This document shows positions 18,003-44,465 of a stretch of DNA of 64,000 nt, in pieces. The notes under the pieces were generated by a model. The model did no database searches, was not told where the DNA came from, and saw only the letters and a list, made by a program, of their open reading frames with translations. The stretch lies in assembly GCF_056746865.1 (NCBI RefSeq), contig NZ_CM163382.1; one strand, 5' to 3'. Every line of letters starts with the position of its first letter. Position 1 is the first letter of the stretch. The position numbers and the translations under genes are program-made.

Positions 18003-18078
18003 GGCCCCTTAGCTCAGTGGTTAGAGCAGGCGACTCATAATCGCTTGGTCGTTGGTTCAAACCCAACAGGGGCCACCA
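18003..18078 (+). tRNA. ileX: tRNA-Ile (anticodon CAU, ileX-like)
   Basis: 76 nt: 7-bp acceptor stem GGCCCCT/AGGGGCC, D-arm, anticodon loop CTCATAA, T-arm GTTGG-TTCAAAC-CCAAC, 3' CCA. Ile2 rather than Met assignment is from memory of ileX and from position after mug. Confidence 0.85.
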
Positions 18079-23175: not shown

Positions 23176-23207
23176 AAGTAAAAAGCCCCGGTCATTATGA
23201 CCGGGGC
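23176..23207 (-). terminator. Intrinsic terminator after flu (agn43)
   Basis: Minus-strand hairpin gccccggtca/tgaccggggc (loop taa) followed by U-run (plus-strand aaaaa at 23180-23184), 20 nt after the flu stop. Confidence 0.5.
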
Positions 23208-23229
23208 CTGAAGGGGAGTGACCTGATTA

Positions 23230-26076
23230 TCAGAAAGTCACATTCAGCGTGGCCTGACCGTTATAGCCTTCAGCGCTGTTGCCGCTGACACTGTGGGCAT
23301 AACCGGCCTGAACGCCCAGAGTGATATTTTCCCGGACACGGGCTTCCAGTCCGGCCTGCAGGTCCAGTGACGTGCCATTCTGTGACGGTGAGAACGTCAT
23401 GTTACTGCCGGCTTCAGCTGTACCCATGCTCATGTCACCCCGGGAGCTGAAAGTGCGGATAACAGAAGGCTGTACCCACCAGTTCACCGGCAGTTCACTC
23501 ACACGGTGTTTTGTACTGTCGCGCAGAGTGTCACGGGATGAGGTGCCTTCGCCAAAGGTCATATCGTTGTGGCTGCCCAGACGGAAGCCGGCACGCACAT
23601 GTTGTGTACTGCCATGCCCGAACTTCACATAACCGGCGTTATCCTGGCCGTCATCCAGGGAGAGCCCCTGCCAGGTGTACTGCAGTTGTGGCTCCAGCAT
23701 CAGGTTGTCAGTGATACTGAAGGGCAGACCGGTTTCCAGTGAGCCCAGCCAGCCCCAGCCCCGGGCGCGGAAGTCGTTATTGTCCGATGACGCTTTCATG
23801 CTGTGGCGGGTTCCCTGTGCCACAATGTCAGCCCACAGGCCGGAGGACGTGTGTGTCAGATTCAGGTATCCGCCCAGGCTGCCGGCATCATCCCGGACTG
23901 TGCCGGCGCGGGAACCGTCATCATCCTTAACATCAACGGAAGAATGACCTGCAGCACCATACACCCCTGTCGTCAGAGACATACCTGCAACCTCTGTTCT
24001 CAGCAGGTCACCCTCCAGACGGACGAAGCCATAGCTGCCGCTGCTTTCCGGCGTGGCTCCACGGGCAATACCGCCGTTGTTATCGTGACCGAGATGACCG
24101 CCCTGAATGCTGAGACGGACGCTGTTATTTTCACCGTTTACACCGGTCTGATGGCTGCGGGAGCCTGCCAGAATCCGGTCATAGTCCATTGCCTGTGTCA
24201 GCATGGAGGCATACAGGGGGACTTCAGCACGATAAGCATTTTCACTGCGCAGGTACCAGTCTTCATCGCTGTCACGGTTCAGGGTGTAGTTAAAGGCACC
24301 GGCCTGAAGCGGGCGACTCAGGGCAAACGCACCTTCTTCTGTGGTGGCACCATTCTGTGCATCCACAACCCGGATACCCTGTCCGGAGGTTGCCACCCCG
24401 AGGTTACTGTTTCCGACATTTGTGAACGCAAGCCAGGTTTTGCCGGTTGCCTGACCACCATTAATCACCAGCTGGTCAGAGGCATTGCTGCCATCAAGGC
24501 GAACACGCATATTGATGGTGCCACCCTGACCGGTGAGGTTACTGGTTGTCAGTTTATGGAACGTTACCGGGGCGTTGCCTTTTGCAACAGCACGGCTCAG
24601 TATGGCATCCGGTGTTGTCTGATTGTCAAAGTAAATCTCCCCTGCGTTAACAATATCGCCGGTACTGACCACATCACCATTCAGTACCATGCTGGCGCCT
24701 TTACTGAGCTGTGTTCTGCCACTCAGACTTCCCCCGGCAGCCAGCATCAGTGTTCCACGATGTCCGACAGTGGTGTTGCCAGCCTGTCCCCCGGCATTAA
24801 CCGTAAAGCTGCCGCCATTTTCCAGCAGCAGGCCGCTGGCCTGACCGGATATGCCATCAATACTGAACTTACCGCTGGCATTGGTCCCCTCAACAGTGGC
24901 ACCACTGTCTGCAATCAGGGCACCACCGGATGTCATGGTGACACCTGTCGCCTTACCACCGGCAGACACTGCCAGGGTTCCGCCGTCATCCACCCGTGTT
25001 TTCTGCGCTGAATGGCCCTCCAGTACATCCAGGCGACCGCCGGACTCCAGAACAACACCGTCAGCCTTACCGTTTTCCACCGTGAAATTCCCCAGACGGT
25101 TGCTGCCGGTGACGGTTGCCGCCGTACTGGTGACCAGTGCGCCGCCCTGCTTCAGGGTGACATTCGTGGCTGTACCACCGGCGTTCACCTGCAGTTTGCC
25201 TTTCTGGTTAACGGTGGAGAAATCCGCCAGACCACCTTCCTTGATAATCTGCCAGCCGTCACTGTTTACAACAGTGCCAGACGCCGTACCGCCGTTGTGC
25301 ACATACTGGTACCCCCCATTCAGCGTGGTATCCAGTGCGTGACCATGTACAGTCTGGTCGCCGCCGGCATAAACCACAGTGGTATTTGCCGTTCCTTCAG
25401 CAGCCACAATCTGACGACCATTTTTATTGATGGTGGTGCGTACGGCATCTCCGTAGACGGTCTGCCCGGTATCACCATTTTCTGCATCCGGTCCCCCTTC
25501 CGCGCCGGTATTCACAACCGTGTCGGTTGCCATTGCGCCGGATTTGACGGCCTGCCAGCCCTTCTCATTAATGACGGTACCCGTTGCAATCCCGCCTTCA
25601 TGTATCCACTGCTCACCGCCGTTCAGAGTGGTGTTCACTGCCTGCCCCTGAAGGCTCTGTCCGCCTCCGGCACTGATAACCGTGTCTGAAACGCTTCCTC
25701 CGGCATTCACTCTCTGAAGACCACCACCGGTGACAGTAGTGTTGTTGGCGGTACCGCCATTTTGTATCCATTGGCCGCCGGTATTCGCCTCGTTATCCGG
25801 CCCATACTCCAGCCCGGTACTGATGGTCATTCCGTTGGCCGTACCGAAGACAATCTGGTTGTCATGATTTGTCAGTGTTCCGCCGCTCACGGTTTCTCCC
25901 GCCTGTACGACCGTGTCAGCAGCCAGTACCGGGACTGACGTGACAGCAGCAAGAGACAGCGCAACCGCCACACCGGTGCGTTTTCCCCGTGAGCGCGCCA
26001 GTTCGGAAGCCACCACCAGGGTGCCCGTAATGTGATTCCATACCAGCCTGTAGCTGGTGTTCAGATGTCGTTTCAT
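23230..26076 (-). CDS. flu: Antigen 43 self-associating autotransporter adhesin
   Basis: 948 aa from Met MKRHLNTSYRLVWNH... (26th codon of the track ORF); long signal peptide, repetitive passenger domain, C-terminal beta-barrel ending NVTF. Confidence 0.88.
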   Translation of the reverse strand: MKRHLNTSYRLVWNHITGTLVVASELARSRGKRTGVAVALSLAAVTSVPVLAADTVVQAGETVSGGTLTNHDNQIVFGTANGMTISTGLEYGPDNEANTGGQWIQNGGTANNTTVTGGGLQRVNAGGSVSDTVISAGGGQSLQGQAVNTTLNGGEQWIHEGGIATGTVINEKGWQAVKSGAMATDTVVNTGAEGGPDAENGDTGQTVYGDAVRTTINKNGRQIVAAEGTANTTVVYAGGDQTVHGHALDTTLNGGYQYVHNGGTASGTVVNSDGWQIIKEGGLADFSTVNQKGKLQVNAGGTATNVTLKQGGALVTSTAATVTGSNRLGNFTVENGKADGVVLESGGRLDVLEGHSAQKTRVDDGGTLAVSAGGKATGVTMTSGGALIADSGATVEGTNASGKFSIDGISGQASGLLLENGGSFTVNAGGQAGNTTVGHRGTLMLAAGGSLSGRTQLSKGASMVLNGDVVSTGDIVNAGEIYFDNQTTPDAILSRAVAKGNAPVTFHKLTTSNLTGQGGTINMRVRLDGSNASDQLVINGGQATGKTWLAFTNVGNSNLGVATSGQGIRVVDAQNGATTEEGAFALSRPLQAGAFNYTLNRDSDEDWYLRSENAYRAEVPLYASMLTQAMDYDRILAGSRSHQTGVNGENNSVRLSIQGGHLGHDNNGGIARGATPESSGSYGFVRLEGDLLRTEVAGMSLTTGVYGAAGHSSVDVKDDDGSRAGTVRDDAGSLGGYLNLTHTSSGLWADIVAQGTRHSMKASSDNNDFRARGWGWLGSLETGLPFSITDNLMLEPQLQYTWQGLSLDDGQDNAGYVKFGHGSTQHVRAGFRLGSHNDMTFGEGTSSRDTLRDSTKHRVSELPVNWWVQPSVIRTFSSRGDMSMGTAEAGSNMTFSPSQNGTSLDLQAGLEARVRENITLGVQAGYAHSVSGNSAEGYNGQATLNVTF

Positions 26077-26293
26077 CAGCTTTTCCTTACAGAGGGTGAA
26101 TAAAAAAGCCGGTACCCACAAATGTGGATACCGGCAGGTACAAAACAGCATGGTCAGATAAAGTGGTTTTTCCCGGACATAAATGCTTCCCCTCTCTCAT
26201 CCGCCAGAGAAGTATCAGTCCGTTGTGTGCAATTCCGTTCTGCATGATGAAGAGATTCAACTGCCTTTTCGCAGGCCATTAACCACTATAAAC

Positions 26294-26329
26294 GATCGAT
26301 AGTAACGATCGATACCTGTTTTATTGATC
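26294..26329 (-). promoter_or_regulatory. agn43 phase-variation switch region (three Dam GATC sites, presumed OxyR operator)
   Basis: GATC at 26294-26297, 26307-26310 and 26326-26329 within 36 bp, about 220-250 bp upstream of the flu ATG. Confidence 0.65.
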
Positions 26330-26448
26330 GTTTTATTCTATTGATTGCAAGGCGGTCACGCAAGAGAAACAGGAGGATCATGAGGTGTTTGTGTCATGTT
26401 TTCAGTTGGTTAACGCAATGTAATCAGGCATTTCCCCTGGCAGACTGT

Positions 26449-27584: not shown

Positions 27585-29141
27585 ATGACAAGTATTCAAC
27601 AACGAGCAGAACTGCACCGCCAGATATGGCAAATTGCCAATGATGTCAGAGGTTCTGTTGACGGATGGGATTTTAAGCAATACGTTCTGGGCGCACTTTT
27701 CTACCGTTTTATCAGCGAAAATTTTTCCAGTTATATTGAAGCCGGTGATGACAGTATCTGTTATGCGAAACTGGATGACAGCGTAATTACTGATGACATT
27801 AAAGACGATGCCATCAAAACTAAAGGCTACTTCATCTACCCCAGTCAGCTTTTCTGCAACGTAGCGGCGAAAGCAAATACTAATGACAGGCTGAATGCAG
27901 ATTTAAACAGCATCTTCGTTGCTATCGAAAGTTCTGCTTACGGTTATCCTTCAGAAGCTGACATCAAAGGTTTGTTTGCTGATTTCGATACCACCAGTAA
28001 CCGCCTGGGTAACACCGTTAAGGATAAAAATGCCCGCCTGGCTGCGGTTCTGAAAGGGGTTGAAGGGTTAAAACTTGGTGACTTCAACGAACATCAGATT
28101 GACCTGTTCGGTGATGCCTATGAGTTCCTGATTTCTAACTATGCGGCAAATGCCGGTAAGTCAGGCGGTGAGTTCTTTACACCGCAGCACGTCTCCAGGC
28201 TGATTGCACAACTGGCTATGCACGGGCAGACCAGCGTTAACAAAATCTACGACCCGGCAGCGGGTTCCGGCTCACTGTTGTTGCAGGCGAAAAAACAGTT
28301 TGATAACCACATCATCGAAGAAGGCTTTTTCGGTCAGGAAATCAACCATACGACCTATAACCTGGCGCGTATGAACATGTTTTTGCACAACATCAACTAC
28401 GACAAGTTTGATATCAAGCTGGGTAATACACTGACTGAGCCACACTTCAGAGATGAAAAACCGTTTGATGCCATCGTTTCTAACCCGCCGTATTCGGTGA
28501 AATGGATTGGCAGCGATGACCCGACGCTGATTAACGATGAACGTTTTGCCCCGGCTGGCGTTCTGGCCCCCAAATCAAAAGCTGACTTCGCCTTTGTACT
28601 ACATGCGCTGAACTATCTTTCTGCCAAAGGTCGCGCCGCGATTGTCTGCTTCCCGGGTATTTTTTACCGTGGCGGCGCGGAGCAGAAAATCCGTCAGTAT
28701 CTGGTCGATAATAACTATGTCGAAACCGTGATTTCACTGGCACCGAACCTGTTCTTTGGCACCACCATTGCCGTCAATATTCTGGTGCTGTCTAAACATA
28801 AAACGGATACCAAAGTTCAGTTTATTGACGCCAGCGAACTGTTCAAAAAAGAGACTAATAACAACATCCTGACCGATGCTCATATCGAACAGATTATGCA
28901 GGTATTTGCCGGCAAGGAAGATGTTGCTCATCTGGCGAAATCTGTCACGTTTGAGACTGTTGTCGCGAATGACTATAACCTGTCGGTGAGCAGCTATGTG
29001 GAAGCGAAAGATAACCGCGAAGTGGTGGACATTGCTCAGCTCAACGCCGAGCTGAAATCTACTGTCGCCAGGATTGACCAGCTTCGCAGGGATATTGATG
29101 CCATCGTCGCTGAAATTGAAGGCGAGGAGCAGGAGGCATGA
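27585..29141 (+). CDS. hsdM: Type I restriction-modification system, N6-adenine DNA methyltransferase subunit
   Basis: 518 aa; AdoMet motif [10 protein letters not shown] and catalytic NPPY ([11 protein letters not shown]); N-terminal HsdM domain. Confidence 0.92.
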
Positions 29142-30343
29142 GTAGCGTGAACTTCTTGGAAAAGCTGTTGGATGGCGTTGAGGTCGAGTGGAAGACACTT
29201 GGGCAAACTTGCAAAATTGAAACAGGAAAGCTTAATGCGAATGCGGCTGTTGATGATGGAGAGTATATGTTCTTCACGACAGCCAAAGAGACAAGCAAAA
29301 TTGATAAATTCCGCTGGGATACAGAGGCATTGCTGATTGCAGGCAATGCGAATGTTGGTGAGGTGAAGCATTACATCGGCAAGTTTGAGGCTTATCAGCG
29401 CACCTATGTTCTGACAAATTTCGACGAAAATGTAAGTGTTAGATTTTTGTATTTTGTGCTTAGCCATAGCCTGAAGAAATATCTCGAGGAAAGAACAAAT
29501 AGCGCGGCAATGACATATATCGTGCTATCAACCTTAGAGAATTTCCCTATCCCCATCCCCTGCCCAGGCAACCCCCAAAAATCCCTTGCCATCCAGTCTG
29601 AAATCGTTCGGATTCTGGATAAATTTACTGCACTTACCGCTGAGCTTACCGCTGAGCTTAACATGCGTAAAAAACAGTACAACTACTATCGCGACCAGTT
29701 GTTGAGTTTTAAAGAGGGTGAGGTTGAGTGGAAGACTTTGGGGGAAATTGGAGATTTTACATATGGATATGCAGCCAAAGCCATGGATTCAGGAGATGCC
29801 CGTTTCGTGAGAATTACTGACATAAATAAAGACGGGAAGCTATCGAAAGAAAACCCAATGTACGTTGAATTAAATGAGGAAAATGAGAAATATACCTTAG
29901 ACAAAAATGATTTACTCATGGCAAGAACTGGGGCAACCTTTGGTAAAACAATGATTTTTGAAGAAGATTATCCAGCAGTATACGCTGGTTTTTTAATAAA
30001 GTTGAACCTAAATAAAACGATTATTAATGCCAAATATTACTGGCACTTTGCACAAAGTGATTTTTTTTGGGAACAGGCTAATAAATTAGTATCTGGTGGT
30101 GGGCAACCACAGTTTAATGCTAATGCACTGAAACAAGTCAGAGTACCTATTCCATACCCATCTCACCCTCAAAAATCTTTAGACGAACAGGGGCGTATTG
30201 TGGATATTCTGGATAAGTTTGATGCAATCGCAGCTTCCATCACCGAAGGTCTCCCGCGTGAAATCGAGTTACGTCAAAAACAATACGAATACTATCGTGA
30301 TTTACTGCTCAGTTTCCCAAAACCTGAAACTGTCAGTAAATAA
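29138..30343 (+). CDS. hsdS: Type I R-M specificity subunit (type IC architecture)
   Basis: 401 aa; ATG overlaps hsdM stop; two variable recognition domains separated by a conserved central region with TAELTAEL and conserved distal region ([24 protein letters not shown]). Confidence 0.9.
29633..29656 (+). repeat. 12-bp tandem repeat cttaccgctgag x2 in hsdS (TAEL x2)
   Basis: Two perfect tandem copies plus a 4-nt partial third (ctta), read directly; encodes LTAELTAEL in the HsdS central spacer. Confidence 0.9.
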
Positions 30344-30464
30344 TTGACCATTGCTACCGACCGGGCCTCCTTAACATCCGGTCAGTATATAGACTATTTT
30401 TTACGCGCCGGAAGTCACTCTTAACGCCCTTCCGGCTCTTGCCAGGCGGCACAAAGGATGCGCT

Positions 30465-33400
30465 ATGACTCATCAAACACACACCATTGCTGAATCCAAT
30501 AACTTTATCGTCCTTGATAAGTACATCAAAGCTGAGCAAACAAGCGACAGCTACCAGAGCGAATCGGACCTGGAACGTGAACTGATTCAGGACCTGCGGA
30601 ATCAGGGTTATGAATTTATTTCCGTAAAATCACAGTCGGCAATGCTGTCTAATGTTCGGGAACAGCTTCAGAGCCTCAATGGTGTGATGTTTAATGACAG
30701 CGAGTGGCGGCGCTTCACGGAGCAGTATCTGGACAACCCCAGCGATGGTATTCTGGATAAAACCCGTAAAATCCATATCGACTATATCTGCGACTTTATT
30801 TTTGACGACGGGCGACTTGAGAACATCTATTTGATAGATAAAAAGAATCTCATGCGCAATAAGGTGCAGATTATCCAGCAGTTTGAACAGACGGGTTCTC
30901 ATGCTAACCGTTATGACGTCACGATCCTGGTTAATGGTTTACCGCTGGTGCAAATCGAACTAAAAAAACGCGGGGTGGCGATTCGTGAGGCTTTCAACCA
31001 GATACATCGTTACAGTAAAGAGAGTTTTAACAGCGAAAATTCCCTGTTTAAGTATCTGCAACTGTTTGTCATTTCTAACGGCACCGATACCCGTTATTTT
31101 GCCAACACGACAAAGCGCGATAAAAACAGTTTTGACTTCACCATGAATTGGGCGAAATCAGACAACACGCTGATTAAAGACCTCAAAGACTTTACCGCTA
31201 CCTTTTTCCAGAAACATACTCTGCTGAATGTTCTGGTGAACTACAGCGTTTTTGACAGTAGTCAGACGCTACTGGTGATGCGACCGTACCAGATTGCCGC
31301 CACCGAGCGCATTCTGTGGAAAATTAAGAGTTCCTTTACAGCGAAGAACTGGTCAAAACCGGAAAGCGGTGGGTATATCTGGCACACTACCGGTTCTGGT
31401 AAAACCCTCACCAGCTTTAAAGCCGCGCGTCTGGCAACAGAGCTGGACTTTATTGATAAAGTCTTCTTTGTGGTCGACAGGAAAGACCTCGATTACCAGA
31501 CCATGAAGGAATATCAGCGTTTTTCGCCAGACAGCGTCAACGGCTCGGAAAATACCGCAGGCCTTAAACGAAATCTGGATAAGGACGATAACAAAATTAT
31601 CGTCACTACTATTCAGAAACTCAATAACCTGATGAAAGCAGAAAGCGACCTGCCTGTATATAATCAGCAAGTGGTGTTTATATTTGATGAATGCCACCGC
31701 AGCCAGTTTGGAGAAGCGCAGAAAAACCTGAAGAAGAAATTCAAACGCTATTATCAGTTTGGTTTTACCGGCACCCCTATTTTCCCGGAAAACGCCTTAG
31801 GCTCAGAAACAACCGCCAGCGTATTTGGCCGTGAATTGCATTCGTATGTGATTACCGATGCGATTCGTGACGAAAAAGTGCTCAAATTCAAGGTGGACTA
31901 CAACGATGTGCGGCCACAGTTTAAGTCTTTAGAGACAGAAACTGACGAGAAAAAACTGAGTGCGGCTGAAAATCAGCAGGCGTTTCTTCACCCCATGCGT
32001 ATTCAGGAAATCACGCAATATATCCTGAATAATTTCCGCCAGAAAACCCACCGTACTTTCCCTGGTTCCAAAGGTTTTAATGCCATGCTGGCAGTAAGCA
32101 GCGTGGATGCTGCAAAAGCCTATTATGCGACGTTTAAACGGTTACAAGAGGAAGCCGCTAATAAATCTGTAACTTATAAACCGCTGCGTGTTGCGACAAT
32201 CTTCTCCTTTGCCGCTAATGAAGAACAAAATGCCATTGGTGAAATTTCCGATGAAACTTTTGATACCAGCGCAATGGACAGCAGTGCTAAAGAGTTTCTT
32301 GACGCTGCAATTCGTGAGTATAACAGCTATTTTAAAACTAACTTCAGCACCGACGGTAACGGTTTTCAGAACTACTATCGTGATTTAGCCCAACGGGTTA
32401 AAAATCAGGATATCGATCTGTTAATTGTCGTGGGAATGTTTTTAACCGGCTTCGATGCTCCAACATTAAACACGCTATTCGTCGATAAAAACTTGCGTTT
32501 TCACGGCCTGATGCAGGCATTCTCCCGCACCAACCGCATTTATGACGCGACTAAAACCTTCGGTAATATTGTCACGTTCCGGGATCTGGAACGCTCAACC
32601 ATTGATGCCATAACGCTGTTTGGTGATAAAAATACCAAAAATGTGGTTTTAGAAAAGAGTTATGCAGAGTATATGGAAGGCTTTACTGATGCTGCCACTG
32701 GTGAAGCTAAACGCGGCTTCATGACAGTAGTTTCAGAACTGGAACAACGGTTCCCTGACCCTACCAGTATTGAAAGTGAAAAAGAGAAGAAAGACTTCGT
32801 TAAACTGTTTGGCGAATACCTGCGTGCCGAGAATATCCTGCAAAACTATGATGAATTTGCCACGCTAAAAGCCCTGCAACAAATCGATCTTAGCGATCCT
32901 GTTGCGGTAGAAAAATTCAAAGCAGAACATTATGTGGATGATGAAAAGTTCGCTGAATTGCAAACAATTCGTCTCCCTGCTGATCGCAAGATTCAGGATT
33001 ATCGTTCTGCCTATAACGATATTCGCGACTGGCAGCGCCGTGAGAAAGAAGCTGAGAAAAAAGAGAAATCAACCACTGACTGGGATGACGTAGTTTTTGA
33101 GGTCGATTTGCTGAAGTCTCAGGAAATAAACCTGGATTATATCCTTGGACTGATTTTCGAACACAACAGACAAAATAAAGGCAAGGGCGAAATGATCGAA
33201 GAGGTCAAACGCTTAATTCGTTCAAGCCTGGGGAACCGTGCTAAAGAGGGCCTGGTGGTCGATTTTATTCAGCAAACGAACCTGGATGATTTACCGGACA
33301 AAGCCAGCATCATTGACGCATTCTTTACGTTTGCTCAACGCGAACAGCAACGTGAAGCAGAAGCCTTGATCAAAGAAGAAAATCTCAATGAAGAGGCGGC

Positions 33401-33581
33401 GAAACGCTATATTCGCACATCTTTAAAACGCGAATACGCCACCGAAAATGGCACGGAATTAAACGAGACACTGCCCAGACTCAGTCCTTTAAATCCGCAA
33501 TATAAAACGAAAAAACAGACTGTTTTTCAAAAAATTAGCGCATTTATTGAAAAATTTAAGGGGGTGGGTGGAAAGATTTAG
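30465..33581 (+). CDS. hsdR: Type I R-M restriction endonuclease/helicase subunit
   Basis: 1038 aa; helicase motif I (TGSGKT) and DEAD-like box ([12 protein letters not shown]); length and sequence recall EcoR124I HsdR. Confidence 0.92.
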
Positions 33582-33731
33582 GGAAGGTGCGAATAAGCAG
33601 GTCATTTCTTCCCAAGCTGACTCGCTGATTAAAATTTCGCGGATCTGGGCCGATTTTTTTCCCGCAAACACATCGAATCGGCCTGTTTAGGCTATTTTTT
33701 CCACCATTTCTGGCGTTATTTCCGGTTTTTA

Positions 33732-36015
<2,284 letters not shown>

Positions 36016-36184
36016 TCAGGAACTTGTTCGCACCTTCCCTAAAAAAAGCAGATGATTTTCATTATTATCGCAGGATAATTGTGCGCATATTTTCCATGCG
36101 GATAAGAATACTTATTCATGGAAATAATAATTTCCAGGTCATCAAGTGAAATCTGTTAACGCAAAGAGTGTTCCACCCTGCCCC

Positions 36185-36715
36185 TCACACCATCTCAAGT
36201 TTTACCGCGTCATAACCACACTGAACCAAACATTCACCGCAACCATTACATATTGCAGCATCGATTACAGGCATTCCGCTTTCGTTGATTGAGCATGCCT
36301 GAAGTGGGCATAGATCGACACACTGTTTGCAACTGCGCACCGGATTAACACAATTTGCTTTAAAAACGGGACGCAATCCGGTGTCGAAACGAGCCTGCGG
36401 ACGTAATGCCTCAGTGGAACATGCAGCTATACATAAGCCGCAGCCGTCACAACTGGCAAATTCAATCACCAATTGCGGATAGCCATCTTCATGCCGGTTG
36501 AGAATGCCCATGGGACAGGCATTAATACACAAATCACACTGCGTGCACTGCACACGAAACTGCGCATCAGGTAACGCGCCGGGAGGTAAGGAGTGCACAG
36601 GTAATATCGGTGTTGTTACCGGGCGTGCCGCGCTGACAAAGGCCCGAAATAGCCCACGTCGGCTAACATACCGATGAGACATTAACTCCTGATAATAATT
36701 TTCTGACTTACTCAT
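36185..36715 (-). CDS. Ferredoxin-type protein with multiple 4Fe-4S motifs (NapF-like)
   Basis: Several CxxCxxCxxxCP motifs; start taken at MSKSENYYQ... whose ATG overlaps the upstream chaperone stop (ATGA). Confidence 0.65.
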   Translation of the reverse strand: MSKSENYYQELMSHRYVSRRGLFRAFVSAARPVTTPILPVHSLPPGALPDAQFRVQCTQCDLCINACPMGILNRHEDGYPQLVIEFASCDGCGLCIAACSTEALRPQARFDTGLRPVFKANCVNPVRSCKQCVDLCPLQACSINESGMPVIDAAICNGCGECLVQCGYDAVKLEMV

Positions 36716-37308
36716 CCAAGAAAGAGCCGTTTGGTTGGAGGATTTAGTGCCTGTTGCTGCTGATAATCCTGCAGAAACAGTGTCGCAATCTGCGCCAACT
36801 TCGCGTAAAACGCACTGACAGGGTTGCGCTGTAATAACTCCAGATAACGATATCCCCACGGCAGCAAATGCGTTTCCAGCAATTGATTCGCTGCGCGTTC
36901 TTTCCCCTCTGCCAGCAAGGCGCTACAGGCAAGCAGCATCAGGCCAAACTGATCTTCCGGTTCATTTATACAGGAATCAAACGTCATTCCCTGATCACGA
37001 AGGAACTTCCGGTACTCGGCAGTGCTGTCCCCCATCAACAGATTATCTTTTTCGAGATATACCGAACCCCAGGGTGGTGCTGGCATTTCACCCTGTCCTT
37101 CAAAAAGAACAGAAAATTGCCAGAGATGCTGCTCCTCATCCGGGATTGACCAGTCAGAGCATAATTCAGCCACCTGGCGGGGATCGCGCCAGGGGTATAT
37201 CTCATCCAATGTCGGCAGACAGTCAAACAGTGCCCGAACTTCAGGACGCGTGGGAGAATAGTAAAACAGGGCACCAAGAATACGCACCAGTACGGCTGGG
37301 GAAGGCAT
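36712..37308 (-). CDS. TorD/DmsD-family redox enzyme maturation chaperone
   Basis: About 199 aa from MPSPAVLVRILGALFYY...; position after the membrane anchor as in dms/ynf operons. Confidence 0.6.
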   Translation of the reverse strand: MPSPAVLVRILGALFYYSPTRPEVRALFDCLPTLDEIYPWRDPRQVAELCSDWSIPDEEQHLWQFSVLFEGQGEMPAPPWGSVYLEKDNLLMGDSTAEYRKFLRDQGMTFDSCINEPEDQFGLMLLACSALLAEGKERAANQLLETHLLPWGYRYLELLQRNPVSAFYAKLAQIATLFLQDYQQQQALNPPTKRLFLG

Positions 37309-37362
37309 GATTAAACACTCCTGAAAGCAGAGGTGGCCGGGCAAACACCGGCCACTCACAGG

Positions 37363-38139
37363 TTACATAGGGATGGTCCAGAGGTTGTAGAAACCGATCC
37401 GACCAACCAGTTCAGCAGCAATAACCACCAGTGCAGTCATCGCCAGCACAGCTTGCCCACTTTTCATGCGTGCATAGAGCAGTGCCCCAATAACACCCAG
37501 CGCCAACAGAATGGCCTGAGCGGTAAACCAGGTGGACTGCGCAGCGGTAATAACGCCATCAGCACTCATTAGCGTGGAAATATAACCCGGACGCAAACAG
37601 AAACTCGCCAGAATCGCCAGTACACTTACCAGCAGCCCCAGACGACGAACGCCAAACAACGCCGCCAACATGCCGCCACCGATAAGTGCAGTTAGCACCA
37701 TCATCATGGTGGTGTAAGAGGTACTCCAGGTCGCTACCGTTGCCAACTGGTAAATACGCGGGATGGCAAAGATAAACACGACTCCAATCGCAGCGGCCAG
37801 CCATACCAGTACTTTACAAAGCATTGCACCACCGCGATTTAACAGCAAACCGAGAGATCCCAGTCCTCCGGCTGCGGCAAAACATGCCGAAAGCACGATT
37901 TCGTTACTCATAGGAGAACTGCCGACACGGAATAGCATATTCAGCGCTCGCAGCGGCTGCCCGACATGAATGGTGCCAAGCACAACACCCACACCAAACA
38001 AGCACATCACCGAAAAGAGACCAATCGCCATACGACGTGGCTCAATTAATCCCATGGCACCGCCAATCAGCAGCAGAATAAACGCCCCCACTGCGCTCTG
38101 GGTAAATACGGTGAAAAAGACCAGTGGTAACTCATGCAT
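37363..38139 (-). CDS. DmsC-like membrane anchor subunit
   Basis: 258 aa, eight predicted hydrophobic segments; overlaps the B-subunit stop by 8 nt. Confidence 0.75.
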   Translation of the reverse strand: MHELPLVFFTVFTQSAVGAFILLLIGGAMGLIEPRRMAIGLFSVMCLFGVGVVLGTIHVGQPLRALNMLFRVGSSPMSNEIVLSACFAAAGGLGSLGLLLNRGGAMLCKVLVWLAAAIGVVFIFAIPRIYQLATVATWSTSYTTMMMVLTALIGGGMLAALFGVRRLGLLVSVLAILASFCLRPGYISTLMSADGVITAAQSTWFTAQAILLALGVIGALLYARMKSGQAVLAMTALVVIAAELVGRIGFYNLWTIPM

Positions 38140-38758
38140 GGCGCACCTCCCGAATGTTCATGATCGCCCCTTCTTTGTCGCCCGTAGGTCGCGCCAGCGG
38201 ATGCGGTTTAATTATCAGGTTAGGATGCGTAAACGAAGCGGCAGGTAACGGTGCGATTTCATTTTCACTGCCATATTTCGCCCGCAATTCGTCGATAGGA
38301 CCAAAATCCAAAGCTCGCTGTGGACAGGACTCAACACAAATAGGCGGGAGATTTTTCTCCAGTCGGTCAAGGCAACCATCACACTTACGCATCACTTTAG
38401 CTTGTGTATCAAACTGCGGTGCACCATAAGGGCAGCGCATTTCGCAGTAACGACAGCCCACACAAACACTGTCATCCACCAGCACCAGGCCATCTTCTTC
38501 GCGTTTGTGCATCGCGCCGGTTGGGCAACCTGCCACACAGGTCGGTTCATCGCAGTGATTGCAGGCAATCGACAAATAGTAAGTGAAGGTATTGTTGTGC
38601 CAGCTTTCACCTTCTTTCACCCAGCTACCGCCACCATATTCATACACGCGGCGCAGCTTCGGTCCGACATCCAAATCTTTATTATCCTTGCAGCTTACCT
38701 GGCAGGTTTTGCAGCCAGAGCAACGCGAGGAGTCAACGTAAAAACCATACTGTTTCAT
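38132..38758 (-). CDS. DmsB-like 4Fe-4S electron-transfer subunit
   Basis: 208 aa with four Cys-cluster motifs (CSGCKTCQVSC, CNHCDEPTCVAGCP, CVGCRYCEMRCP, CDGC...C). Confidence 0.85.
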   Translation of the reverse strand: MKQYGFYVDSSRCSGCKTCQVSCKDNKDLDVGPKLRRVYEYGGGSWVKEGESWHNNTFTYYLSIACNHCDEPTCVAGCPTGAMHKREEDGLVLVDDSVCVGCRYCEMRCPYGAPQFDTQAKVMRKCDGCLDRLEKNLPPICVESCPQRALDFGPIDELRAKYGSENEIAPLPAASFTHPNLIIKPHPLARPTGDKEGAIMNIREVRHA

Positions 38759-38771
38759 TGCGGATCACTCC

Positions 38772-41207
38772 CTAAGCGCGTTTGATTTCAACCAGGTTGG
38801 TATGTTGCGGGTTCCCTTTCGCCAGCGGCGACGGCAGGTGGCTGGTCAATGTGTTAATACATCCACCCACGTCCACACCGTTGCTGTCCAGTCGGGTCCA
38901 CGCGCCTTGCGGCATTGCCACCACGCCCGGCAGGATGCGCTGTGTCACCTTGCAGGGGATCTCCACCACACCGCGATCGTTGAATACATGGACCATATCG
39001 CCTGATTTCAACTGACGCACGCTGGCGTCTATCGGGTTGATCCAGACTTCATCCGGTACCGCTTCATGCAGCATCAGCACACTGGCATATGTTGAGTGCG
39101 TGTGACCTTTGGTGTGAAAACCGCTCATCTGTAGCGGATACTTTGCTGTCAGACTCTTGTTCAGATGGGACTCTGTCACTATACAAAATTCAGGAACAGC
39201 CGGAATGCGATCTCCTTCCGGTAGTGTCCAGGCTTTAGCCAGTTCCGCCAGAGTGTGCGAGTAAATCTCAATCTTCCCGGAAGGTGTCGTCAGTGGACTG
39301 GCAACCGGATCATGGCGGAAATCAGCAAGGATAATACTGTCCTCATCACGAGTACCTTGCTGATCGATAACCCCCATATTCATTGCAACTTCCCATTCAG
39401 GCAGATATGATCGCTTCTCTTTAACTTGTCCGTAATGCTTCGCCATCCACTCTGCCTGAGTACGCCCCTCAGTAAAACGCTCTCTTACCCCAAGATGCCC
39501 CGCAATATCTGCACAGATATCATAGGTACTGCGTACTTCCCACATCGGTGTGATCGTTTTTTGCATTGCAATCATGTAATGGTGAGAACCGGCTGCATAG
39601 GAACTGTCCACCAGATCCTCGGCTTCTAAGTAGCTAGTTTCTGGAAGAAGGATATCGGCAAAGCGGGCACTGGCAGTCATATGATTATCAATAACCACGA
39701 TAGTTTCGCACAGGCTGTCATCTTCAAGTATTTTGCGTGTACGATTGATATTTCCATGTTGATTCAGAAGTGCATTCCCGGCCTGGTTGAAGAACAGTTT
39801 AATACCGGTTTTCAGTTTATCCGCGCCTTTAACCCCCATAGTGGTGGCTGTCATTTTTTCCGGACTTTGAATCGCATCTGTCCACAGATAGCAGGGGATT
39901 GACACCTTAACGGGATTTTCACCAATCGGCAGAGCAGGAACACCATAAGGTGTTCCGTATGTCCAGTTCCCATTGTTGGTTCCTGGCAATCCAAAATGAC
40001 CCGTCAGGGCAGGAAGTATCTGAACCGCTCTGGAAGTCTGTTCACCATTTGCATGACGCTGTGGCCCCCATCCCTGGGCAATGAAACAGGCCCGAGCTTC
40101 GGCCATTTCACGTGCCAACTGGCGAATACGAATAGCCGGGATGCCACAGATATCTGCCGCCCATTCAGGTGTTTTTTCGACGCCGTCATCACCGTTACCC
40201 AGAACATAGTCTTTATAACTGGCATTTGGTTTCGCCGTTTCCGGAAGGGTGCTACGATCATAACCGACACAATAAGTATTGACTCGTTCTTCGTCGATCA
40301 GATTTTCTTTTATCAACGTGTGTGCAATAGCTGCTACCAGTGCAGCATCGGTTGTAGGGCGAATTGGTAACCATTCAGCATGTTCTGTAACAACAGAGTC
40401 TGTATAGCGCGGATCGATGATAATCACCCGGGCGCCTGATATTTCCAGCGCACGGCGCAGTTCTTCAACTTGCCCACCACCGGACATCCGAGTCTCAGAT
40501 AAATTCAGACCAAAAAAAACCACAAGATCAGAATGCGCAATCTGGCTAAAATGACTGGCAAACTGTACTCCTGTAGCACCATACGTGTAAGATGTGGCGG
40601 TAAAGTTTTGAGCGTTTGAGTAATTATTGTAATACTGCAGAAAACCGCCATTCAGGTTCAATAACCTTTTCCATGCGGGTGTTCCTTGGTTATGATAATA
40701 CGCGCCAGATTGATAATTAAAATAGATTGCTTCATTTCCATATTTTTCAGAAACGCGCTTTAATTCAGCGGCAATAAAGGCTGTGGCCTCATCCCATGAA
40801 ATACGTTTAAATTTCCCTTCTCCGCGTTTACCAACACGTTTCATCGGATATTTAATCCGGTCAGGGCTATAAACACGCCAGCGGCTGGAACGACCACGTA
40901 GGCAAGGTCGAATCTGATGTTCACCAAAAACAGAGTCGTCCTTCGCGTCCTCGGCTTCAATACGAACAATGCGTCCGTCTTTTACGATAACTTTTAATGG
41001 ACAACGACTTCCGCAATTCACCAGGCAAGCACTATGCCTGACGGTTTCAGCATTTTCGTTGGTTTTACCGGTATCCGATGTTTCGGCCCTGACGGTTGTG
41101 GAAAAAGGCAAAGTGATGGCGTTGCTTAGTGCAACGGCAGCTCCCAATTTTGCAGTTGTAGTCACCGCATCACGTCGGGAGATTGTTGTATTTAACAACT
41201 CTTTCAT
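38772..41207 (-). CDS. DMSO reductase-family molybdopterin oxidoreductase catalytic subunit (DmsA/YnfE-like)
   Basis: 811 aa; twin-arginine signal (TISRRDAVTT), N-terminal Cys cluster (HSACLVNCGSRCP), molybdopterin domains. Confidence 0.85.
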   Translation of the reverse strand: MKELLNTTISRRDAVTTTAKLGAAVALSNAITLPFSTTVRAETSDTGKTNENAETVRHSACLVNCGSRCPLKVIVKDGRIVRIEAEDAKDDSVFGEHQIRPCLRGRSSRWRVYSPDRIKYPMKRVGKRGEGKFKRISWDEATAFIAAELKRVSEKYGNEAIYFNYQSGAYYHNQGTPAWKRLLNLNGGFLQYYNNYSNAQNFTATSYTYGATGVQFASHFSQIAHSDLVVFFGLNLSETRMSGGGQVEELRRALEISGARVIIIDPRYTDSVVTEHAEWLPIRPTTDAALVAAIAHTLIKENLIDEERVNTYCVGYDRSTLPETAKPNASYKDYVLGNGDDGVEKTPEWAADICGIPAIRIRQLAREMAEARACFIAQGWGPQRHANGEQTSRAVQILPALTGHFGLPGTNNGNWTYGTPYGVPALPIGENPVKVSIPCYLWTDAIQSPEKMTATTMGVKGADKLKTGIKLFFNQAGNALLNQHGNINRTRKILEDDSLCETIVVIDNHMTASARFADILLPETSYLEAEDLVDSSYAAGSHHYMIAMQKTITPMWEVRSTYDICADIAGHLGVRERFTEGRTQAEWMAKHYGQVKEKRSYLPEWEVAMNMGVIDQQGTRDEDSIILADFRHDPVASPLTTPSGKIEIYSHTLAELAKAWTLPEGDRIPAVPEFCIVTESHLNKSLTAKYPLQMSGFHTKGHTHSTYASVLMLHEAVPDEVWINPIDASVRQLKSGDMVHVFNDRGVVEIPCKVTQRILPGVVAMPQGAWTRLDSNGVDVGGCINTLTSHLPSPLAKGNPQHTNLVEIKRA

Positions 41208-41287
41208 TTTATTTTCTCACATTGTTTTCATAATTATTATTAATACGACATATGAGGTAATCATAAAGAATTAGTAATTCATCATGA

Positions 41288-41301
41288 TTGATTATGATCA
41301 A
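41288..41301. promoter_or_regulatory. FNR-box (TTGAT-N4-ATCAA) upstream of the molybdoenzyme operon
   Basis: ttgattatgatcaa is a perfect match to the FNR consensus, centred about 87 bp upstream of the ATG at 41207; a second FNR/CRP-like site gtgatcattatcaa lies at 41337-41350. Confidence 0.5.
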
Positions 41302-41413
41302 GTGAGATTTGGTGCTTAGCACAAATATAAATATTTGTGATCATTATCAAAATGTAAATGATAACGCATCTTTATTATCATTTGAGATTAAATATCACGC
41401 AGCGTTAATCTAA

Positions 41414-43870
<2,457 letters not shown>

Positions 43871-44465
43871 CAAGAGAACGCAACAGCGCACTTGCTTTGC
43901 CACAGTTGAATTTTGTGCCGTAACGATGTGCAAGCATGTAAGCATAAGGAGTCAAGGTATAGCGTGTTACTTAGTTACTCGGATTAACAATCCCAACGTA
44001 CAGAGCGGCGGATTTAGAGAGTCAGCGCAGTCCCTGCTCCGGCAGTCAGTGGCAGGCGGCGTACTGAAGCAAACCATTATCGATACCGGCATCGGCGATA
44101 CCATCGGCATGCTGATGTCACACGGCAATATTTCTCCCTACATCATGGCGTGGTTGATAACCGTGCTGATCCGTCTGGCAACGGGTCAGGGCGTGGTCTC
44201 AGCCATGACGGCGGCGGGGATTATTAGCGCAGCAATCCTCGACCCGGCAACCGGTCAACTGGTGGGCGTCGACCCGGCGTTGCTGGTGCTGGCAACAGCG
44301 GCTGGCTCCAACACGCTGACCCATATCAACGATGCTTCGTTCTGGCTGTTCAAAGGCTACTTTGATCTGTCGGTGAAGGATACGCTGAAAACCTGGGGTC
44401 TGCTGGAGCTGGTAAACTCCGTGGTTGGCCTGATAATCGTGTTGATCATCAGCATGATTGCATAA
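43871..44465 (+). pseudogene. GntP-family permease, C-terminal fragment truncated by IS5
   Basis: The 303-aa track ORF starts inside IS5; only the distal ~198 codons look like a gluconate-type permease C-terminus. Confidence 0.6.

What the first reader, a model, noticed from the sequence alone, without database searches (positions are those of the whole stretch)
23230..26076. Antigen 43 allele with a shortened passenger domain
The CDS encodes 948 aa, roughly 90 aa shorter than the K-12 protein as I recall it (1039 aa). The difference appears to lie in the repetitive passenger region, which may change autoaggregation or biofilm behaviour.
Basis: partly seen in the sequence, partly recalled or inferred. 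Interest (0 to 1): 0.3.

Follow-up and report, generated by a model that had tools for sequence, protein, structure and literature searches.

The report
Ordinary short-form Antigen 43 gene
This is an intact copy of the common 948-residue form of the E. coli self-aggregation adhesin Antigen 43, a form already catalogued, crystallised and found in about half of sequenced E. coli, so it is ordinary.

Summary
Window 23230-26076 (minus strand) encodes a 948-aa Antigen 43, against 1039 aa in K-12, and both use the same MKRHLNT start.

It is not an unusual shortened allele.
- All 91 missing residues map to K-12 residues ~404-600. That is the 'bottom of the L' (BL) subdomain plus the first part of the translocation unit, not the N-terminal stem that mediates aggregation.
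- This stretch lies in a divergent cassette (44-68% DNA identity, flanks 81-100%). There are no DNA tandem repeats, so it is a module swap, not a repeat contraction.
- The protein matches NCBI's Ag43/Cah equivalog model end to end, and that model is itself 948 positions long.
- The exact protein is already in NCBI (WP_130568454.1).
- It is 96.8% identical, without indels, to the crystallised UTI89 Ag43 (PDB 7KO9). All nine of that protein's self-association residues are conserved.
- Its stem is 98.4% identical to a class C6 representative of Ageorges et al. 2023, the most prevalent class.
- The short module is in 2,943 of 5,426 complete E. coli genomes and the K-12 module in 2,388.
- The three-GATC phase-variation switch upstream is conserved.

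Verdict: already known, low interest.

The parts
23230..26076 (-). agn43/flu coding sequence, 948 aa plus stop codon: an Ag43/Cah family self-associating autotransporter
   Evidence: ORF list and translation. NCBIfam NF033177 equivalog scores 1983 bits against a cut-off of 1200 and matches 1-948 of 948 model positions. The DNA is 100% identical to the gene annotated 'Ag43/Cah family autotransporter adhesin' (WP_130568454.1) in NZ_CP042969.1.
25921..26076 (-). Extended signal peptide, aa 1-52, with the ESPR motif
   Evidence: Pfam PF13018 ESPR matches aa 6-48. The SP length of 52 comes from Ageorges 2023 Table S1.
25156..25920 (-). SL subdomain (stem of the L), aa 53-307: the beta-helix face that mediates head-to-tail self-association. 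Subtype SL1a.
   Evidence: Identity is 98.4% to class C6 representative VAEP_1499.110, 97.6% to UTI89 Ag43 (7KO9), 87.8% to K-12, 86-89% to C4 representatives and 70% to C2/EDL933. All nine UTI89 interface residues are conserved: G13, G30, T32, N60, D79, T80, T98, N100, N137.
24901..25155 (-). EJ subdomain (elbow), aa 308-392, type EJ2
   Evidence: Identity is 94% to 7KO9 and 91.5% to 7KOH, against 75% to K-12. It carries the conserved motif VVLESGGRLDVL.
24631..24900 (-). BL subdomain (bottom of the L), aa 393-482, type BL2: 90 aa against 143 aa in K-12. This is the main site of the length difference.
   Evidence: Identity is 97-98% to 7KO9 and 7KOH, against 55% over a partial alignment to K-12. 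BL lengths are from Table S1. Vo 2022 reports four rungs here instead of seven.
24288..25086 (-). Divergent cassette relative to K-12 flu (about aa 331-596). It holds all the indels that sum to -91 aa.
   Evidence: Sliding DNA identity is 44-68% here, against 81-97% upstream and 90-100% downstream.
24280..24588 (-). Autochaperone domain (AC_1), aa 497-599
   Evidence: Pfam PF18883, E = 2.9e-18. This domain is resolved in the 7KO9 and 7KOH crystal structures.
23305..24060 (-). Beta-barrel translocator, aa 673-924
   Evidence: Pfam PF03797, E = 5.1e-19. Residues 614-948 are 94.9% identical to K-12.
26294..26329 (-). Three GATC (Dam) sites of the agn43 phase-variation switch, which overlaps the OxyR operator
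   Evidence: GATC sites start at 26329, 26310 and 26297. The start-to-start spacing of 19 and 13 nt is the same as in K-12. The flanking sequence AATAGAATAAAACGATCAAT is conserved. That this triad is the Dam/OxyR switch is established knowledge for K-12 agn43.
26095..26331 (-). agn43 leader / IsrC (Rfam IS102) region
   Evidence: Rfam RF00124 scores 74 bits against a gathering score of 46. K-12 annotates isrC at the same position upstream of flu.
26108..26135 (-). Terminator-like hairpin plus T-run in the leader, 32 nt upstream of the start codon
   Evidence: A 12-bp stem with 8 G-C pairs, then TTTTTTATTC. Nearly identical in K-12.
23183..23209 (-). Terminator-like hairpin just downstream of the stop codon
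   Evidence: A 12-bp stem with 8 G-C pairs, then a T-rich tail.

Best explanation
The locus is an intact, phase-variable agn43 (flu) gene of the standard short form: subfamily II, module order SL1a-EJ2-BL2-AC, which is class C6 in the six-class scheme of Ageorges et al. 2023.

Inferred mechanism, by homology:
- The protein is exported by Sec through its extended signal peptide.
- Its C-terminal beta-barrel inserts in the outer membrane, and the L-shaped beta-helical passenger folds on the surface with help from the autochaperone.
- Passengers on neighbouring cells bind head to tail ('Velcro handshake') through polar residues on the N-terminal stem, which clumps cells and promotes biofilm.
- Expression is switched ON and OFF by competition between Dam methylation and OxyR binding at three GATC sites upstream.

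The 91-residue difference from K-12 is an ancient module difference, not a recent deletion. The bottom of the L has four rungs instead of seven, and the junction to the autochaperone is shorter. Because the stem is 97.6% identical to that of UTI89 Ag43 and keeps all nine of its interface residues, I predict UTI89-like behaviour: a single interface and slower, looser aggregation than Ag43a or EDL933 Ag43.

Shown here: the gene structure, the domain content, the position and nature of the length difference, class membership, prevalence, and conservation of the interface residues and the GATC triad. Inferred only: secretion, processing, aggregation strength and phase variation.
For: - Length and start: 948 aa against 1039 aa with the same start codon; all gaps lie within K-12 residues ~404-600.
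- Architecture: ESPR, four AIDA repeat matches, AC_1 and the autotransporter beta-domain.
- Family model: NF033177 matched 1-948 of 948 positions at 1983 bits, cut-off 1200.
- Solved relatives: 7KO9 aligns to residues 52-613 with 18 substitutions and no indel, 96.8% identity. 7KO9 is the UTI89 protein, because the published interface residues match it 9/9. The EDL933 residue set matches 7KOH 19/19, and 7KOH has four chains as the paper describes for EDL933.
- Interface: all nine UTI89 interface residues are conserved.
- Class: the stem is 98.4% identical to the C6 representative, 86-89% to C4 representatives and 70% to C2. Published subdomain lengths add up to exactly 948 and 1039.
[quoted passage not shown] Ageorges 2019 and 2023 describe BL2 as 53 aa shorter and C6 as the most prevalent class, 36.5% of sequences.
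- Prevalence: the short module is in 2,943 and the long module in 2,388 of 5,426 complete genomes. The exact protein is on 25 contigs, in a 90%-identity cluster of 26,437 members.
- Regulation: the GATC triad has K-12 spacing, and the IS102/IsrC leader is present.
Against: - Nothing here contradicts the identification.
- The phenotype prediction is weak. 18 substitutions separate this allele from UTI89 Ag43, and some sit next to interface positions. N64S is adjacent to G13. D267G and T309K lie near the positions used by the double interface in other variants.
- Small changes in this family are known to alter aggregation kinetics: Ag43a and Ag43b are 86% identical in the alpha-domain but differ strongly.
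- The alpha/beta processing site of the short form is unknown (Vo 2022).
- Whether the gene is expressed in this strain was not tested.
- My class C6 call rests on one representative plus hallmark motifs, not on a phylogenetic network.
Confidence: 0.93

Rival explanations
1. The allele is a recently derived, unusual deletion variant of the K-12-type gene. It would have arisen by contraction within the repetitive passenger and would have new aggregation behaviour.
For: The protein is 91 aa shorter than K-12 Flu, and the loss lies in the beta-helical part.
Against: - The region differs from K-12 by 32-56% at the DNA level over about 800 nt, not by clean deletions.
- There are no DNA tandem repeats.
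- The same short module is 95-100% conserved in 2,943 complete genomes, is present in the UTI89 and EDL933 crystal structures, and is the published EJ2-BL2-AC module.
Confidence: 0.02
2. The length difference is an annotation artefact: a different choice of start codon, or a truncated ORF.
For: The ORF stays open upstream to an ATG at 26151, which would give 973 aa, so start choice is not trivial.
Against: - The window protein and K-12 Flu both start at MKRHLNT, and the ESPR domain begins at residue 6.
- The upstream 25 codons overlap the conserved leader hairpin.
- The 91-aa difference is internal.
Confidence: 0.01
3. It is the EDL933 Cah-type protein (class C2). It would then self-associate through the extensive double interface of 24 hydrogen bonds and aggregate fast.
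For: It has the same length class, 948/949 aa, and NCBI uses the same name, 'Ag43/Cah family'. The EJ, BL and AC regions are 91-98% identical to 7KOH.
Against: - The stem is only 70% identical to 7KOH (EDL933) and to a C2 representative, against 98% to C6.
- Several EDL933 double-interface residue identities (for example S162, D181, N216) are not found at the corresponding positions of the near-identical 7KO9 sequence.
Confidence: 0.04

Closest known systems
Ag43 of UPEC UTI89 (locus c1139; PDB 7KO9; Vo et al. 2022, PMC8993888)
   Same: It has the same 948-aa form. Residues 52-613 are 96.8% identical with no indel. The SL, EJ, BL and AC modules are the same, and all nine experimentally validated self-association residues are identical.
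   Different: There are 18 substitutions: N64S, L77F, I109T, V158I, D267G, T287S, T309K, N337K, W358Q, L361R, D378G, L431Q, S433G, T444M, R482Y, A492I, D501N, S502A. Their effect is untested.
Ag43 class C6 (SL1a-EJ2-BL2-AC; Ageorges et al. 2023, PMC10058404), representative VAEP_1499.110
   Same: It is 948 aa. The stem is 98.4% identical, and there are about 6 differences in the first 400 aa. The subdomain lengths are the same: 52/255/85/90/466.
   Different: Only point substitutions. The authors state that no C6 member had been characterised. By my comparison the UTI89 protein falls with C6 rather than C4 (inference).
K-12 Flu/Ag43 (b2000, 1039 aa, class C1: SL1a-EJ1-BL1)
   Same: The two share the start, signal peptide and stem subtype (87.8% identity), the translocator (94.9%), the upstream GATC triad and leader, and a neighbourhood of the same gene families (YeeP-type GTPase, RadC/JAB, DUF987, YeeU/CbtA).
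   Different: K-12 has the EJ1-BL1-AC module. Its BL is 143 aa against 90 aa and its translocation unit 488 against 466 aa, which gives +91 aa. K-12 has a known D551/P552 processing site with no counterpart here. The alpha-domain RGD of K-12 (FVRGDAV) reads TVYGDAV in this allele.
Cah / Ag43 of EHEC EDL933 (z1211; PDB 7KOH; class C2)
   Same: It has the same short EJ2-BL2-AC module, 91-98% identical, and nearly the same overall length.
   Different: It has a different stem subtype (SL2a), 70% identical, and a different self-association interface: a double interface with 24 hydrogen bonds.

Membership tests
Ag43/Cah family self-associating autotransporter (T5aSS) | Full-length match to the curated equivalog model above its cut-off | tested here: met
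   NF033177 scores 1983 bits against a cut-off of 1200, matching positions 1-948 of 948 in one stretch.
Ag43/Cah family self-associating autotransporter (T5aSS) | Modular architecture: ESPR signal peptide, beta-helical passenger with AIDA-type repeats, autochaperone, C-terminal beta-barrel | tested here: met
   Pfam PF13018, PF16168 (4 stretches), PF18883 and PF03797 all score above their gathering cut-offs. TIGR04415 repeats match 7 times.
Ag43/Cah family self-associating autotransporter (T5aSS) | L-shaped beta-helix passenger | tested here: met
   This is by homology only: 96.8% identity without indels to the solved L-shaped structure 7KO9. No model was built here.
Ag43/Cah family self-associating autotransporter (T5aSS) | Polar self-association interface on the stem | tested here: met
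   All nine residues of the mutationally validated UTI89 interface are conserved.
Ag43/Cah family self-associating autotransporter (T5aSS) | Confers autoaggregation; alpha-domain is cleaved and released by heat | not testable with these tools
   This needs expression in an agn43-null host. The processing site of the short form is unknown (Vo 2022).
Dam/OxyR phase-variable agn43 promoter | Three GATC sites with fixed spacing in the operator upstream of the gene | tested here: met
   GATC sites at 26329, 26310 and 26297, with start-to-start spacing of 19 and 13 nt as in K-12.
Dam/OxyR phase-variable agn43 promoter | Heritable ON/OFF switching that depends on Dam and OxyR | not testable with these tools
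   This needs reporter fusions in dam and oxyR backgrounds.
Ag43 class C6 (Ageorges 2023) | SL1a stem subtype | tested here: met
   The stem is 98.4% identical to the C6 representative and 95-97% to C1 members that carry SL1a. It has the SL1a motif GGLQRVNAGGSVSDTVISAGGGQSLQGQAVNTTLNGG, not the SL1b motif of C4. No phylogenetic network was run.
Ag43 class C6 (Ageorges 2023) | EJ2-BL2-AC module (BL 90 aa, passenger 430 aa, total 948 aa) | tested here: met
   EJ, BL and AC are 94-98% identical to 7KO9. The subdomain lengths add up to 948.
Ag43 class C2 (EDL933 Cah type) | SL2a stem subtype | tested here: not met
   The stem is 70% identical to a C2 representative and to 7KOH.
Ag43 class C1 (K-12 type) | EJ1-BL1 module (BL 143 aa, total about 1039 aa) | tested here: not met
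   The BL region is 55% identical over a partial alignment, and 91 aa are missing.

The most novel reading that the evidence does not exclude
One or more of the 18 substitutions relative to UTI89 Ag43 could shift this allele's aggregation kinetics or its heterotypic partner range away from the UTI89 phenotype. Candidates are N64S, next to interface residue G13, and D267G and T309K, on the face used for the second interface in other variants. If so, this would be a natural fine-tuning variant within the otherwise little-studied class C6.
Probability: 0.12. Interest if true: 0.2.

Novelty: already known. Interest (0 to 1): 0.06.

Why it matters
It matters little beyond correct annotation. The K-12 protein is not the norm for Antigen 43. 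The 948-aa form is at least as common, is the length of NCBI's reference model and has crystal structures. A length difference from K-12 should therefore not be flagged as a truncation.

For anyone studying this strain, the gene predicts a phase-variable, UTI89-like (moderate) autoaggregation capacity. One small point for the field: by stem identity the crystallised UTI89 protein belongs with class C6. That class is therefore not uncharacterised, contrary to the 2023 survey.

Tried and rejected
- **PDB assignment error, corrected.** I first took PDB 7KO9 ('AidA-I family adhesin') to be EDL933 Cah and labelled the window allele Cah-like/C2. The published EDL933 interface residues did not fit 7KO9 (10/19 at best) but fitted 7KOH 19/19. 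The UTI89 set fitted 7KO9 9/9, and 7KOH has the four chains described for EDL933. The assignment was reversed.
- **Start-codon artefact.** Rejected.
- **Repeat contraction.** TRF finds no DNA tandem repeat even at score 30, and the region is a divergent cassette.
- **Second Ag43 copy in the window.** A tblastn of the protein against the window finds only this one copy.
- **Supplement searches by identifier.** Searching Table S1 of Ageorges 2023 for WP_130568454, CP042969, EDL933 and UTI89 found nothing. Peptide searches worked instead.
- **Source strain.** The window is not the CFSAN061769 chromosome itself. The gene is 100% identical, but the flanks are 98-99.9% identical and have extra insertions.
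- **Searches not run.** I did not run structure prediction or the large protein searches. A 96.8%-identical crystal structure and an exact database match made them unnecessary.
Full report
**Observation.** The minus strand carries one long ORF from 26151 to 23230. From the ATG at 26076 it translates to a 948-aa protein beginning MKRHLNTSYRLVWNH. RefSeq annotates the same start for the 100%-identical gene in E. coli CFSAN061769 (WP_130568454.1, 'Ag43/Cah family autotransporter adhesin'). K-12 Flu from NC_000913.3 is 1039 aa and has the same start.

**What the protein is.** Pfam finds the complete type Va autotransporter architecture:
- an ESPR signal-peptide extension (aa 6-48)
- four AIDA repeat stretches
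- an AC_1 autochaperone (aa 497-599)
- the beta-barrel domain (aa 673-924)

NCBI's equivalog model NF033177 (Ag43/Cah) is matched from position 1 to 948 of a 948-position model at 1983 bits, against a cut-off of 1200. K-12 Flu matches the same model in two pieces. The reference model for the family therefore already has the 'short' length.

**Where the 91 residues are missing.**
- K-12 and the window protein align without a gap to residue ~403. All gaps fall in K-12 ~404-600, and from window residue ~597 onward the proteins are again ~95% identical.
- DNA identity is 81-97% for codons 1-330, falls to 44-68% for window codons ~331-596, and returns to 90-100% afterwards.
- Tandem Repeats Finder reports no DNA repeats in the gene.
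- This is a mosaic gene with a divergent central cassette, not a K-12-type gene that lost repeats.
- With the subdomain boundaries of Ageorges et al. 2023 (Table S1), the short form is SP 52 + SL 255 + EJ 85 + BL 90 + TU 466 = 948. K-12 is 52 + 271 + 85 + 143 + 488 = 1039.
- So 69 residues are lost from the passenger, essentially the BL 'bottom of the L', and 22 from the start of the translocation unit. The K-12 D551/P552 processing site lies in a gap.

**Comparison with solved structures.**
- The passenger plus autochaperone (residues 52-613) is 96.8% identical, with 18 substitutions and no indel, to PDB 7KO9. It is less similar to 7KOH, whose stem is 70% identical.
- The PDB titles do not name the strains, and I first mis-assigned them.
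- The interface residues published by Vo et al. 2022 (PMC8993888) settle it. The UTI89 set matches 7KO9 9/9 and the EDL933 set matches 7KOH 19/19. 7KOH also has the four chains per asymmetric unit described for EDL933.
- The closest characterised protein is therefore UTI89 Ag43, not EDL933 Cah.
- Vo et al. state that the UTI89 and EDL933 alpha-domains are 69 aa shorter than Ag43a and Ag43b, giving four instead of seven rungs in the C-terminal helix. All variants keep the L shape.

**Class.**
- Ageorges et al. 2019 (PMC6668479) and 2023 (PMC10058404) describe Ag43 passengers as shuffled modules: stem subtypes combined with either EJ1-BL1-AC or EJ2-BL2-AC. BL2 is 53 aa shorter.
- The window stem is 98.4% identical to a class C6 representative (VAEP_1499.110, 948 aa), 95-97% to C1 members with the SL1a stem, 86-89% to C4 representatives and 70% to C2.
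- It is therefore class C6 (SL1a-EJ2-BL2-AC). The authors report C6 as the most prevalent class, 36.5% of Ag43 sequences.
- By the same measure UTI89 Ag43 groups with C6 (97.6%) rather than C4 (86-88%). Vo 2022 calls it C4 under the older four-class scheme, and the 2023 paper says no C6 member has been characterised. This regrouping is my inference.

**Prevalence.**
- A 591-nt probe from the short module matches at least 80% of its length in 2,943 of 5,426 complete E. coli genomes. The equivalent K-12 probe matches in 2,388.
- The exact protein is on record on 25 contigs and belongs to a 90%-identity cluster of 26,437 members. Most of the listed members are 948 aa long; the shorter ones are partial sequences.

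**Mechanism (inferred).**
- All nine residues of the mutationally validated UTI89 single interface (G13, G30, T32, N60, D79, T80, T98, N100, N137) are conserved.
- I therefore predict head-to-tail self-association of the UTI89 type, which in Vo's assays gave slower sedimentation and smaller aggregates than Ag43a or EDL933 Ag43.
- Two equally short variants (EDL933 fast, UTI89 slow) differ in phenotype, and the differences were traced to stem residues. So the length difference itself is not a predictor of aggregation.
- Upstream, three GATC sites (26329, 26310, 26297) have the same 19/13-nt spacing as in K-12.
- The leader matches Rfam IS102/IsrC and contains a conserved terminator-like hairpin (26135-26108).
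- The Dam/OxyR phase switch is thus intact at the sequence level. Switching itself was not tested.

**Context.**
- The gene sits in a CP4-44-like island next to a tRNA with anticodon CAU (18003-18078). RefSeq annotates the corresponding tRNA in CFSAN061769 as tRNA-Ile, beside mug.
- Upstream is a YeeP-type GTPase.
- Downstream are DUF932, antirestriction, RadC/JAB, DUF987 and YeeU/CbtA genes.
- K-12 flu is likewise flanked by members of the YeeP, RadC/JAB, DUF987 and YeeU/CbtA families.

**Verdict.** This is a standard, already catalogued and structurally represented Ag43 allele. It is not novel and of low interest.

Noticed in passing
window 33576-36039 and 41408-43871, with 36040-41407 between them: There is a 2,464-bp direct repeat, 99.6% identical. 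Each copy carries an IS5-like DDE transposase ORF and an rve-integrase ORF. The repeat brackets a 5.4-kb DMSO-reductase-like operon: molybdopterin oxidoreductase (811 aa), Fe-S subunit (208 aa), DmsC anchor (258 aa), chaperone (215 aa) and ferredoxin (224 aa). The closest complete genome (CFSAN061769) lacks the operon and has only part of one repeat copy here. The layout resembles a composite transposon or an IS-mediated insertion.
   Followed up: partly
window 27585-33581: A type I restriction-modification system (hsdM, hsdS, hsdR) lies next to the Ag43 island. The specificity (S) gene matches CFSAN061769 only patchily (91.6% over 203 nt), while the M and R genes are about 98.6-99.2% identical. 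This suggests a different target specificity.
   Followed up: no
window 23803-25011 (+) and 25012-25689 (+): Long antisense ORFs of 402 and 225 aa lie inside agn43. Nothing supports them as genes. They probably arise from the biased codon composition of the Gly/Thr/Asn-rich passenger.
   Followed up: no
window 26108-26135 (-): A strong terminator-like hairpin (12 bp) followed by TTTTTT sits in the agn43 leader, 32 nt before the start codon. It is almost identical in K-12. It lies inside the Rfam IS102/IsrC match, consistent with leader-level control.
   Followed up: partly
literature and PDB (7KO9, 7KOH): The PDB molecule names do not identify the strains: 7KO9 is UTI89 Ag43 and 7KOH is EDL933 Ag43. 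By stem identity UTI89 Ag43 groups with class C6 (97.6%), not C4 (86-88%). So the 2023 statement that no C6 member has been characterised appears outdated.
   Followed up: yes
window about 25447-25455 (-), codons 208-210: The alpha-domain RGD motif of K-12 Ag43 (FVRGDAV) reads TVYGDAV in this allele. The C-terminal SSRGDM motif is kept.
   Followed up: no
window 18003-18078 (+): A tRNA with anticodon CAU marks one edge of the island that carries agn43. ARAGORN calls it tRNA-Met, while RefSeq annotates the corresponding tRNA in CFSAN061769 as tRNA-Ile, beside mug. The toxin-antitoxin end of the island, not an integrase, abuts the tRNA. No integrase-like ORF turned up in the stretch examined between the tRNA and the IS elements, but not every ORF there was scanned.
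   Followed up: partly
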